The position numbers were made by a program. A stretch of 64,000 nucleotides of DNA. It comes from Escherichia coli (GTDB taxonomy: Bacteria; Pseudomonadota; Gammaproteobacteria; Enterobacterales; Enterobacteriaceae). The stretch is from the NCBI RefSeq assembly GCF_048403405.1, contig NZ_CP183129.1. One strand, written 5' to 3'. This document shows, piece by piece, positions 53,601 through 56,600 of the stretch. Each line of letters starts with the position of its first letter. The first letter of the stretch is position 1.

Positions 53601-56600
53601 TGCCCGCCGTTTTCTTTTTTTTTCGGAAAACTAATTTCTCATTGAGAGCACTTGCTTTTCTGCGCACAGTGTGCCTGTGACTTTATTTTATTAACACAGG
53701 ACAGAAAATGCGTATGAAAATTCTCCCGATATGTCTTGCCCTGACCTCACTGCTGTTGGGGGGCTGTGCAGATAAACCCTCCCGGCCTGCTGAACCGGTG
53801 GCTGATAGATACCGCGATTCTGGTCAACACCGGTCATGCCCAGCCGGTACTTCCGGACCTTTATCCATCAGCTGGGGCTGGTACAGTTACTGCCGGTGGG
53901 CGGACGTTATCAGGGGCGTACGGTGACGTTGCGCCTACCATAAAAGAGATGCCGTGATGAAAAACATAAGATTTGTGGTTTTACTGAGCGGGTGTCTGAT
54001 GACAGCGCCGCTGACAGCCACACAGTCTGTTTCCGGGGGGCAGATTGGCAGATTGAGGCGGGGAAATCGGCTAAGAGTCAGACTCAGTCATTGCAGTATG
54101 AGGCGCAGGAATGGGGACTGAGTGCGGAGGAGTATGCCCGTTTTGAAGCGCTGATGAAAGGGTGGCGCGGTATTCAGTCTCTCGGCCTGGATCCTCTGAC
54201 GACACTGGGCATTGAGGCCCGGTCAGATGAGGAGCGCTGTCGGCTGGCTGAAAAGTGGGTACAGCAGGAATTTGCCTGGGCAGAAAAAGAGCTGGCGTTT
54301 CAGCGGGAAGTGGATGCAGCCTAGAAACGGCTTTATGGTCAGATATTATCGGTCAGTCTGGGAACAGCCGGCTGAATCCGGTCTGTATTCTTTTTATTTA
54401 AATCAATTACACCTGTTAATCGATTAATAATATTAGTCGGAATAACTTTATCTTTATTAATAATAGCGAATACAGGCTGTCCAAAGCTATTTTGTTCAAT
54501 AAAATCGAGCCTTCCATCTTGAATATTATCAAGTGAAATAATAATTGCGGCAATATAAGAGAAGTCAGTATGTAGAATATTAACATATTTACGATGAGTT
54601 GAAATAGAGTCAGACATATCATAGCTGACTGCGACTTTATAATTTTTCATTTTTAATTCCTTTTTGGTAAAAAATCTTGCTGAAATATTAAGTGAAAATA
54701 TTTCATTTATTTATATTTATGTCATCACGGATATAAAATAATGTTATAGGTTGGTGGCTTTTATAATTTTAGTAATCTTTTTTTTAGCAAAATGACTAGG
54801 AATAAAAGCTGTTTAGCTGCACATTACTGTGCATAAAAACCAAGGATATGAATGTTCAATAAGAGCTCGTTATAACCACATTAAATGTGATATATAATGA
54901 TAAAGAGATTGACTATCCATTTGATGAAAATATGCAAACCACGTGATAGAAGCCAATAGAGAGATTATCTTTGAGCGCTGAAAAGATTAAAACTAAAACA
55001 TGAGAAATGTGAAAGCATCATTATATGTGTAATAAGTTTTATATGTGGTCAAAATCGGTTATTATTTTCTATTTTTGCATTCATTAATTGTTAAGGTATA
55101 TATAACAACTATAAGTTATATGTAATTAAATATCCGAATTATACTGTGATGCAGATCAAGGTATATCATTTAAAGAATGATTTTTCTTTAATTCATATAT
55201 TTGTTTTTTGTTATTTGTTGTTTTCTTTTTAACAAAAGAATAGGTGATTAATATAGTCGCCAAGTCTATGTTATAAATATTAATACAATGTATTTATGGT
55301 GCCTTTCCTATAATTAAAGATTATAAATTATTATCATTAATGGTTGCATTAATATATATTTATTTTCTAAATAATTATTTTAAAGTTTTTTAAATTTGCT
55401 TATATAGTCATTAAGATTAATAAAATATACTTTGAAATATATTCTGTATTACCTATTCCCTTCTATATCAATATAAATGAGTTTTACAATCAGTATAAAT
55501 TGTTAAAAATGATCGTTAAAAACGATTGTTATGTTTATATTGATGGTTTTAATCTATCAAAAAAATACATTATCGATCAATAATAACATATTAACATAAT
55601 TTATTTTTAGAAAGAAAATTATATCCATTAATTATATTTTAATTACATGAGGTTACATTTTAATAAATAATAAGTTTGTAATTTCAAATAAAGCTTCCGT
55701 ATTTTTCATGTTGGTGAATGTTATTAATTTTTTATTAAATAATGGCGTTTATATTTAATAATTTTAATAGAGTAGCACCTGTTTTTTATAGTTTTAATAT
55801 ATAAATTAAGGATATAAATACCCTCAATGAAGTTTATAGATTGATTTTTATGTTAGTAACCAAATAATGAAATTTAAAAATAATATTGCTTTAAGTACGG
55901 TACTGTCTGTTGCTATTTTTAACTCAGCAATGGCATATGACGGTACAATTAGTCTTACTGGATGCACTACTGGACAAAATGGATCTAGTAATGTGAAAGC
56001 TTTTTTTGAACCCGGAGCTAATACTGACTTTAATACGAACAAACTAAAAAATGCAAGCTCTGACGGAGCACAAAATGTTCAAATTCAGTTATTAAATAAC
56101 GATGGTACTACTGCTATTCAATTAGGGAAAGACTTTGTCGGACAGGATGTCCATTCAGAAGCTATTAATAGTGACGATGAAGCGACACTACGCTATATGG
56201 CCCAATATTATGCTACAGGAAAAGCAATTGTAGGGGATGTCATTTCTAGTGTTAATTACACTATTGCCTATGAGTAATAAATAATAATCGTGCGTTTTTA
56301 TTATCATTATTTACAAGGCAGCTCATCTGCACTGCTTTGTTCGGAGTTTCCATGAAAAAACTTTTCTTTTTCATGATGGCCGGCTTATTTTCTGTGTCAA
56401 GTTATGCTAATGTTGGGTACCTGAGTTATTTATCCTGAAAACTAGGAAGGTATTAATATTAAAATTAATAATGATGAATCTACTCCATCTTTAATTCAGT
56501 CCTGGATTGATACTGGTGATGCCAGTGTTGCTCCAGACTCAGTCAATGTTCCCTTTATTATTACTCCGCTTATATTTCGTATAGAACCTCACACAGGGCA

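What the first reader, a model, noticed from the sequence alone, without database searches (positions are those of the whole stretch)
54339..54650. Stand-alone decarboxylase N-terminal-domain-like ORF
A 103-aa ORF resembles only the N-terminal wing domain of Orn/Lys decarboxylases, with no catalytic domain following. It could be a truncated gene at the edge of the AT-rich block or a small independent domain protein.
Basis: inference. Interest (0 to 1): 0.3.

Follow-up and report, generated by a model that had tools for sequence, protein, structure and literature searches.

The report
Dead ornithine decarboxylase gene stub
The 103-codon reading frame is the leftover first eighth of an ornithine decarboxylase gene (speF), cut off and decaying inside the known "degenerate" cargo region of the mobile element ICEPm1; it is an ordinary gene remnant, not a new small protein.

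Summary
The ORF is real: window 54339..54650, minus strand, 103 aa. Its match to the Orn/Lys/Arg decarboxylase N-terminal (wing) domain is significant (Pfam PF03709, E=2.7e-13, above the curated cut-off).

It is the 5' stub of a Proteus/Morganella-type speFL-speF-potE operon. About 0.9 kb (window 54386-55289) aligns at 79.5% with the operon of Proteus sp. MB838. That stretch covers the upstream region, the leader peptide gene speFL, the intergenic region and speF codons 1-88.

Homology stops at codon 88/89. There the stub abuts, tail to tail, a truncated ICE backbone gene (TIGR03759 family). The last ~14 codons of the ORF are antisense read-through of that gene. No catalytic-domain or potE sequence survives anywhere in the window.

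The stub is decaying:
- speFL has lost its ATG, carries an in-frame TGA, and its ornithine-sensing HIRRxxH motif is now HIKLITH.
- 60 nt of the intergenic region are deleted.
- The regulatory region carries 61 lineage-specific changes against 19 in the intact relative.
- Coding changes are 15 nonsynonymous to 5 synonymous, close to neutral.

The same junction occurs in P. mirabilis, Providencia stuartii and 13 E. coli genomes. The stub lies next to the iron-uptake genes, in the variable cargo (described in the literature as an iron acquisition system and a degenerate region) that ICEPm1 has and ICEPm2 lacks. This is ordinary and of low interest.

The parts
54386..54650 (-). speF 5' remnant: codons 1-88 plus one further base, encoding most of the wing (N-terminal) domain of an inducible ornithine decarboxylase
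   Evidence: Pfam PF03709 E=2.7e-13. SpeF model positions 1-90. 77% aa and 85% nt identity to the N-terminus of Proteus sp. MB838 speF, with homology ending at window 54386. The model reaches block-mean pLDDT 68-87 for residues 1-80, and its best PDB match is the 1ORD N-terminus.
54339..54385 (-). Chimeric tail of the ORF (about residues 89-103 plus stop): read-through across the junction into the antisense strand of the truncated TIGR03759 gene
   Evidence: Window 53904-54378 aligns at 92% with the TIGR03759 gene of ICEPm2 in E. coli M19 on the opposite strand. The tail has no similarity to SpeF, and intact relatives continue ...NKKNSELYNKQLETAA. Residues 87-103 have pLDDT below 50.
54379..54386 (.). 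Breakpoint between the speF-derived DNA and the ICE backbone-derived DNA (tail-to-tail junction of two truncated genes)
   Evidence: Homology to the speF operon ends at 54386. Homology to the ICE backbone ends at 54378. The identical junction is present in E. coli, P. mirabilis and P. stuartii copies.
54651..54964 (-). Remnant of the speFL-speF intergenic (attenuator) region, carrying a derived deletion of about 60 nt near 54709
   Evidence: Three-way alignment with the intact Proteus (L017) and Morganella-like (L016) operons: both intact copies keep a ~60-nt segment that is missing only from the window copy.
54965..55072 (-). speFL leader-peptide pseudogene: ATG->ATA at 55070-55072, TGG->TGA at 55049-55051, HIRRITH->HIKLITH
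   Evidence: All 10 ICE-borne copies examined (window plus 9 loci) carry the stop and the lost start; nine read IENNNRF*PHIKLITHIMMLSHFSCFSFNLFSAQR and the P. stuartii copy has STQR at the end. Intact relatives read MENNNRFWPHIRRITHIMMFSHRSCFDFNLFNAQR. There are 11 window-specific changes in speFL against 1 in the intact lineage. The R12/R13 and residue 1-7 requirements come from 10.1101/604074. PGAP annotates 54965-55042 as 'speFL' with a non-ATG start.
55073..55289 (-). Upstream (promoter) region of the former speF operon, still homologous to the Proteus chromosomal locus
   Evidence: blastn of L002 7302-8264 against window 55289-54386: 79.5% over 966 columns; alignments.
53957..54378 (+). 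Truncated, multiply damaged TIGR03759-family ICE gene that forms the other side of the junction. It has a 4-nt deletion near 54030-54045 and a TGG->TAG change at 54322-54324, and it is cut at about codon 142 of 247.
   Evidence: Alignment with the ICEPm2 copy in E. coli M19 (L007 7522-8265, 247 aa). PGAP calls the surviving 110-aa ORF 'exported protein' or 'TIGR03759 family'.

Best explanation
The ORF is a non-functional 5' remnant of an inducible ornithine decarboxylase operon (speFL-speF-potE) of the Proteus/Morganella type. A ~0.9-kb piece of that operon (promoter region, leader peptide gene, intergenic attenuator and the first 88 codons of speF) became part of the variable cargo of the integrative conjugative element ICEPm1, next to its iron-uptake genes and probably in what the literature calls its 'degenerate region'. 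A rearrangement removed everything 3' of codon 88 and joined the stub tail to tail to a likewise truncated ICE backbone gene. Translation from the speF ATG therefore runs ~14 codons into antisense backbone sequence before meeting a stop, which gives a 103-aa chimeric ORF. Shown here: the homology limits, the junction, the lesions in the leader, and the accelerated near-neutral divergence. Inferred: the stub is poorly expressed, because the speFL ornithine sensor that normally prevents Rho-dependent termination upstream of speF can no longer be translated, and the product has no enzymatic or regulatory role. The ORF stays open and near-identical across species because ICEPm1 has spread recently, not because the ORF is under selection.
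For: (1) Significant wing-domain and SpeF N-terminus matches.
(2) 79.5% DNA homology to the Proteus sp. MB838 speFL-speF locus over window 54386-55289, ending at codon 88/89. In MB838 and relatives the operon continues with the PLP and C-terminal domains, potE and a TetR gene.
(3) No decarboxylase core or potE sequence elsewhere in the window.
(4) The other side of the junction is a TIGR03759 ICE gene cut at about codon 142 of 247, with a frameshift and a nonsense codon. The neighbouring PilL gene has a ~1.1-kb deletion.
(5) The leader is dead in all 10 ICE copies: the start is lost, there is an in-frame TGA, and RR is now KL. All these states are derived relative to two intact lineages. The published mutational data say R12/R13 substitutions or loss of residues 1-7 abolish ornithine-dependent arrest.
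(6) A ~60-nt derived deletion lies in the intergenic region.
(7) Rate tests. The regulatory region has 61 window-specific changes against 19 in the intact lineage (p=3e-6). In the coding part the window branch has 15 nonsynonymous to 5 synonymous changes, which is not different from the neutral expectation (p=0.59). The intact branches have 6:7 and 13:23, and both differ from neutral (p<0.01). Fisher's test of the window branch against the intact branches gives p=0.008.
(8) Derived substitutions hit positions conserved in intact enzymes: D32Y, and V33I at a nearly invariant column.
(9) Frameshifted versions of the stub exist (P0007, and the P. stuartii NCTC11800 copy), and the more distant Proteus relatives P0008 and P0010 are frameshifted as well.
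(10) The neighbourhood is a gene graveyard: a fimbrial chaperone lacking its N-terminus, an usher reduced to 72 aa, and DUF417 and transposase fragments. [quoted passage not shown]
Against: The ORF is intact, keeps the speF ATG and a plausible GGA ribosome-binding site, and is near-identical (98-100%) in hundreds of assemblies from several genera. The first 86 residues are still predicted to fold as a wing domain with moderate confidence. The coding-region rate tests rest on only 87 codons, and synonymous sites against the outgroup are saturated (dS 1.3-1.8). The window versus MB838-branch contrast alone is not significant (p=0.14). No expression data were available, so 'not expressed' is inference.
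Confidence: 0.93

Rival explanations
1. The stub is a functional stand-alone wing-domain protein. For example, it could modulate oligomerisation or regulation of the host's own Orn/Lys/Arg decarboxylases, having been co-opted after the truncation.
For: The ORF is open in most copies and keeps its start codon and Shine-Dalgarno-like sequence. Residues 1-86 are predicted to adopt the wing fold. It is carried by a successful element found in uropathogens.
Against: The C-terminus is accidental antisense sequence and is predicted disordered. Homology stops at residue 88-89, whereas the Pfam profile runs to position 111, so the end of the domain is missing. The controlling leader is destroyed. Substitutions on the stub's branch are near-neutral and hit conserved positions. 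Frameshifted copies exist. Every other short wing-only protein inspected was a fragment of a full-length enzyme. Conservation is explained by hitch-hiking on a recently spread ICE.
Confidence: 0.04
2. The gene is merely split by a frameshift or sequencing error, and the remainder of speF lies just downstream, as in Proteus sp. MB838, where a 95-aa ORF and a 555-aa ORF together make a full speF.
For: Exactly this situation exists in MB838-like genomes: a -1 frameshift in an A-run at codons 86-88 splits speF into 95-aa and 555-aa ORFs.
Against: In the window the sequence after codon 88 is ICE backbone on the opposite strand, and no decarboxylase core is found anywhere in the 64 kb. The junction is identical in complete genomes of three genera.
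Confidence: 0.01
3. The resemblance is a chance ORF in AT-rich DNA with a spurious profile hit.
For: AT-rich DNA yields many spurious ORFs, and an overlapping 68-aa ORF exists in another frame.
Against: The profile E-value is 2.7e-13 and above the curated threshold. There is 77% identity to genuine speF N-termini, with conserved synteny to speFL upstream.
Confidence: 0.01

Closest known systems
speFL-speF-potE operon (inducible ornithine decarboxylase with ornithine-sensing arrest peptide) of Enterobacterales/Morganellaceae
   Same: Same gene order for the retained part (upstream region, speFL, intergenic region, speF start). The wing-domain sequence is 77% identical to Proteus speF. The leader still scores above the Pfam SpeFL cut-off.
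   Different: Only 88 of ~720 speF codons remain, and there is no PLP domain and no potE. The leader has no start codon, has an internal stop, and has lost the RR of HIRRxxH. The intergenic region has a 60-nt deletion.
[quoted passage not shown]
   Same: The stub lies between the replication-module genes (TopB, STY4534-family, Rpn) and the TonB-dependent receptor genes. It is 99.6-99.7% identical in DNA to P. mirabilis ATCC 29906 and Providencia stuartii NCTC11800, and the region is absent from ICEPm2 of E. coli M19.
   Different: Nothing differs in kind. The papers I could read do not mention the speF stub specifically.
Wing domain of large (fold-type I, prokaryotic-type) Orn/Lys/Arg decarboxylases, e.g. 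Lactobacillus 30a ODC (1ORD), E. coli LdcI
   Same: Significant sequence and predicted-fold match to the N-terminal domain.
   Different: In those enzymes the domain is the N-terminal part of a ~700-aa chain. From my own background knowledge, it mediates assembly of dimers into higher oligomers. Here it is C-terminally incomplete and stands alone.

Membership tests
Pfam PF03709 OKR_DC_1_N (decarboxylase wing domain) | Profile match above the curated gathering score | tested here: met
   50.6 bits against a cut-off of 29.3, E=2.7e-13
Pfam PF03709 OKR_DC_1_N (decarboxylase wing domain) | Predicted fold matches the N-terminal domain of solved decarboxylases | tested here: met
   The best Foldseek PDB hit is 1ord_A, TMq 0.71, E=9e-4
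Pfam PF03709 OKR_DC_1_N (decarboxylase wing domain) | Complete domain, through to the end of the profile and the start of the linker | tested here: not met
   True homology ends at residue 88-89. Intact relatives continue ...ELYNKQLETAA. Residues 87-103 are junction-derived and have pLDDT below 50
SpeF, inducible ornithine decarboxylase (NCBIfam TIGR04301) | Full-length enzyme with a PLP-binding major domain (PF01276) and a C-terminal domain (PF03711), scoring above the model cut-off | tested here: not met
   66.9 bits against a cut-off of 1310, with only model positions 1-90 matched. No core homology in the window
SpeF, inducible ornithine decarboxylase (NCBIfam TIGR04301) | Descent from a speF gene: orthologous N-terminus with speFL upstream | tested here: met
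   77% aa identity to the Proteus speF N-terminus and collinear DNA homology through speFL and the upstream region
SpeFL ornithine-sensing leader peptide (PF10940) | Sequence similarity to the family profile | tested here: met
   28.4 bits against a cut-off of 25 for the conceptual translation, compared with 40.4 bits for the intact Proteus peptide
SpeFL ornithine-sensing leader peptide (PF10940) | Translatable ORF of ~34-35 codons with a start codon and no internal stop | tested here: not met
   ATG->ATA and TGG->TGA (codon 8) in all 10 ICE copies
SpeFL ornithine-sensing leader peptide (PF10940) | HIRRXXH ornithine-recognition motif with Arg12 and Arg13 | tested here: not met
   The motif reads HIKLITH. 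R12/R13 to A or K abolishes arrest in vitro according to 10.1101/604074
[quoted passage not shown] | Located in the variable region between the replication and conjugation modules of an ICEPm1-type element, present in P. mirabilis and P. stuartii, absent from ICEPm2 | tested here: met
   Flanking genes. 99.6-99.7% DNA identity to P. mirabilis and P. stuartii loci. ICEPm2 (CP010221) homology stops at 54378. Module description in PMC11278526. The papers read do not give the module boundaries, so assigning the stub to the 'degenerate region' itself rather than to the variable cargo as a whole is inference

The most novel reading that the evidence does not exclude
The truncated wing domain is still made at a low level from read-through transcription. 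It could then act as a decoy that interferes with the wing-mediated oligomerisation of the host's own large decarboxylases (SpeF, SpeC, LdcI, AdiA), so that ICEPm1 subtly tunes polyamine or acid-stress physiology in uropathogens.
Probability: 0.03. Interest if true: 0.4.

Novelty: already known. Interest (0 to 1): 0.07.

Why it matters
It matters little biologically: this is a hitch-hiking pseudogene fragment in a mobile-element region already described as degenerate. There are two small practical points. First, RefSeq/PGAP annotates the stub as a protein ('Orn/Lys/Arg decarboxylase N-terminal domain-containing protein', WP_004239731.1), and in several E. coli genomes annotates the dead leader as 'leader peptide SpeFL' with a non-ATG start. 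Both are better treated as pseudogene remnants. Second, the stub points to a Proteus/Morganella-like chromosome as a past donor of ICEPm1 cargo DNA.

Tried and rejected
- The plasmid collection has no match to the region.
- Rfam, with permissive thresholds on 53500-56000, gives nothing relevant; there are two sub-threshold sRNA hits near 53530-53601.
- The promoter scan finds 17 sites against 14.7±3.2 expected in shuffles, which is uninformative in AT-rich DNA. Two terminator-like hairpins at 54367-54383 on the + strand overlap the junction but were not pursued.
- The exhaustive representative-library search returned 42 hits, almost all shorter than 260 aa, which at first looked like a family of stand-alone wing proteins. 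Of the 13 sequences I inspected, 12 proved to be contig-end or frameshifted fragments of full-length SpeF that continue into ...FYGxQLE...FDCPGHQGG. The thirteenth, P0014, is a spurious low-complexity repeat hit to the junction-derived tail.
- The genome-contig scan found only ICEPm1 copies (P. mirabilis, P. stuartii) and no intermediate full-length donor. The closest intact relatives, at 77% and 69-70% aa identity, came from protein searches instead.
- Literature searches for ICEPm1 with 'decarboxylase' found no paper discussing this ORF.
- The 'Klebsiella' copy (P0003/L006) has two compensating indels in the tail. That assembly has many split genes, so I treated the indels as probable homopolymer sequencing errors.

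Full report
**Observation.** The ORF exists as described: window 54339..54650, minus strand, ATG start, 103 aa. It lies where GC content drops from about 0.57 to 0.28. The resemblance to decarboxylases is statistically solid.
- Pfam PF03709 (Orn/Lys/Arg decarboxylase N-terminal domain) matches at E=2.7e-13 and 50.6 bits, against a cut-off of 29.3, over residues 5-93.
- The NCBIfam SpeF model TIGR04301 matches at positions 1-90 of 719.
- phmmer finds Lactobacillus 30a ornithine decarboxylase (1ORD) residues 4-86.
- An AlphaFold model built on an alignment of 20 sequences folds residues 1-86 with moderate confidence. Its best PDB match is the N-terminus of 1ORD, with TM 0.71.

**What it is part of.** The 2.8 kb around the ORF is 99.3-99.9% identical in 13 of 5426 complete E. 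coli genomes, always on the chromosome, and is absent from the plasmid collection.
- In E. coli HM670 the flanking genes carry SPI-7/PAPI-1-type ICE names: dnaB-PI, ParB, STY4528 family, TopB, STY4534 family, Rpn, TIGR03759. PGAP calls the ORF 'Orn/Lys/Arg decarboxylase N-terminal domain-containing protein' (WP_004239731.1), with 'leader peptide SpeFL' upstream.
- The same protein (98-100% identity) is indexed in 246 blocks of public assemblies, mostly P. mirabilis.
- The DNA is 99.6-99.7% identical over 12 kb in P. mirabilis ATCC 29906 and Providencia stuartii NCTC11800.
- This distribution and gene content are those of ICEPm1. [quoted passage not shown] These modules are absent from ICEPm2, whose E. 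coli copy is CP010221.
- CP010221 (strain M19) is my comparison locus L007. Its homology to the window stops at 54378.

**Origin of the ORF.** A 95-aa relative (P0006, 77% identical) in Proteus sp. MB838 sits in a full operon: speFL (35 aa), the 95-aa ORF, a 555-aa ORF with the PLP and C-terminal domains, potE, and a TetR gene.
- The 95-aa and 555-aa ORFs are one speF gene split by a -1 frameshift in an A-run. A 99%-identical MAG copy (P0052/L017) is uninterrupted.
- blastn aligns MB838 7302-8264 with window 55289-54386 at 79.5%. The window therefore retains about 0.9 kb of such an operon: the upstream region, speFL, the intergenic region and speF codons 1-88.
- tblastn with the decarboxylase core and PotE finds nothing else in the window; the best E-value is 0.06.

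**The junction.** The speF-derived DNA ends at 54386 and the ICE backbone-derived DNA at 54378.
- The backbone side is the TIGR03759-family gene on the opposite strand. It is cut at about codon 142 of 247. It also carries a 4-nt deletion and a TGG->TAG change.
- The adjacent pilL region has a ~1.1-kb deletion.
- The last ~14 codons of the 103-aa ORF (…DRIQPAVPRLTDNI) are therefore antisense read-through of another gene's remnant. They are predicted disordered, with pLDDT below 50 for residues 87-103.
- Intact relatives continue instead with …NSELYNKQLETAA…FDCPGHQGG.

**Evidence of decay.**
- Leader gene. In the window and nine other ICE-borne copies, speFL reads IENNNRF*PHIKLITH…. The two intact lineages read MENNNRFWPHIRR(I/V)TH…. 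The start codon is lost (ATG->ATA), codon 8 is a stop (TGG->TGA), and the strictly conserved Arg12-Arg13 are now Lys-Leu.
- Published mutational data. The SpeFL study reports that R12/R13 to Ala or Lys, or deletion of residues 1-7, abolishes ornithine-dependent ribosome arrest. It also reports that arrest is what prevents Rho-dependent termination upstream of speF.
- Intergenic region. A ~60-nt segment present in both intact lineages is deleted in the ICE copy.
- Regulatory-region rates. Polarised with the Morganella-like outgroup, the region has 61 window-specific changes against 19 in the intact Proteus lineage (binomial p=3e-6). Within speFL the counts are 11 against 1.
- Coding rates. In the 87 shared speF codons the window branch has 15 nonsynonymous and 5 synonymous changes. 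That matches the neutral expectation (p=0.59). The intact branches show 6:7 and 13:23, and both differ from neutral at p<0.01. Fisher's test of the window branch against the intact branches gives p=0.008.
- Positions hit. The window-specific replacements include D32Y, at a position that is Asp or Glu in all nine other aligned sequences, and V33I at a nearly invariant column.
- Disrupted copies. Frameshifted versions of the stub occur in other assemblies (P0007, and P. stuartii NCTC11800), and so do frameshifted versions of the more distant Proteus relatives (P0008, P0010). Some of these may be sequencing errors.
- Neighbours. The adjacent genes are also degenerate: an orphan fimA-like gene, a chaperone lacking its N-terminus, a 72-aa usher stub, and DUF417 and transposase fragments.

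**Is there a family of stand-alone wing proteins?** The exhaustive search returned 42 hits, nearly all short. Of the 13 I inspected, 12 were partial or frameshifted full-length SpeF proteins running into the linker and PLP domain, and one (P0014) was a spurious low-complexity hit to the junction tail. I found no evidence for such a family.

**Mechanism and verdict.** The best-supported account is that the ORF is an inert 5' stub of speF. It was created when a rearrangement in ICEPm1 cargo fused a piece of a Proteus/Morganella-type speF operon to a truncated backbone gene.
- The ORF remains open and nearly invariant because the ICE spread recently.
- It is probably poorly expressed, because its leader-based antitermination switch is destroyed. 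This last step is inference, as no expression data were available.
- A co-opted role as a free wing domain cannot be formally excluded, but several facts argue against it: the accidental C-terminus, the incomplete domain, the near-neutral substitution pattern and the dead leader.
- The feature is ordinary and effectively already known: it is annotated in RefSeq and lies in the variable cargo already described for ICEPm1.

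Noticed in passing
window 54965-55042 (-) and RefSeq records such as NZ_CP082772.1 558391-558468: PGAP annotates a 25-codon 'leader peptide SpeFL' with a non-ATG (ATA) start in several E. 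coli genomes. Upstream in the same frame there is a TGA, the original ATG is mutated, and the RR motif is lost, so the annotation is probably a pseudogene called as a gene.
   Followed up: yes
L002 8255-8300 (Proteus sp. MB838; also L003-L005): The chromosomal speF of this Proteus lineage is split into 95-aa and 555-aa ORFs by a -1 frameshift in an A-run at codons 86-88. The split appears in four independent assemblies, while a 99%-identical MAG copy (L017) is intact. M. morganii L015 is also split, at codon 136. This could be pseudogenisation or slippage-prone phase variation. The ICE stub's breakpoint lies at the same A-run.
   Followed up: partly
window 53708-53926 and 53864-53872: The pilL-like ICE gene is reduced to a 72-aa ORF by a ~1.1-kb deletion relative to ICEPm2 (L007 6269->7378). 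The two flanks overlap by a 9-bp repeat (TCCATCAGC).
   Followed up: partly
window 53330-53470 (within ORF 52603-53550, Rpn family): The Rpn-family recombination-promoting nuclease gene contains a tandem 15-nt repeat encoding (KGIE)n. The region downstream of the repeat differs between the window and the ICEPm2 copy.
   Followed up: no
window 55250-55860: A ~600-bp non-coding stretch with only 18-22% GC lies between the speF-operon remnant and the orphan fimA-like gene. Its origin and function are unknown.
   Followed up: no
window 55867-57377: Degenerate chaperone-usher fimbrial cluster: an intact fimA-like gene (136 aa), a chaperone lacking most of its N-terminal domain (153 aa; PapD_N positions 74-125 only), and an usher reduced to its first 72 aa, followed by DUF417 and transposase fragments.
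   Followed up: partly
window 58826-60919: A TonB-dependent receptor carries a strikingly His-rich insert (…HTHFHDHEDDHHHHAPIRPPLIGHHHHNHNHEYPDEQHQH…). It is followed, in the related E. coli genome, by a second plug-domain receptor, and it probably belongs to the ICEPm1 iron/metal acquisition module.
   Followed up: no
window 5007-16005 and 37788-42551: Only parts of the rest of the window match E. coli HM670. The pap fimbrial operon and IS3 copies match at 94-97%, and the integrase/ParA/DnaB-PI start of the ICE matches at 98%. The ICEPm1-like element therefore sits next to a uropathogenic-type pathogenicity island.
   Followed up: partly
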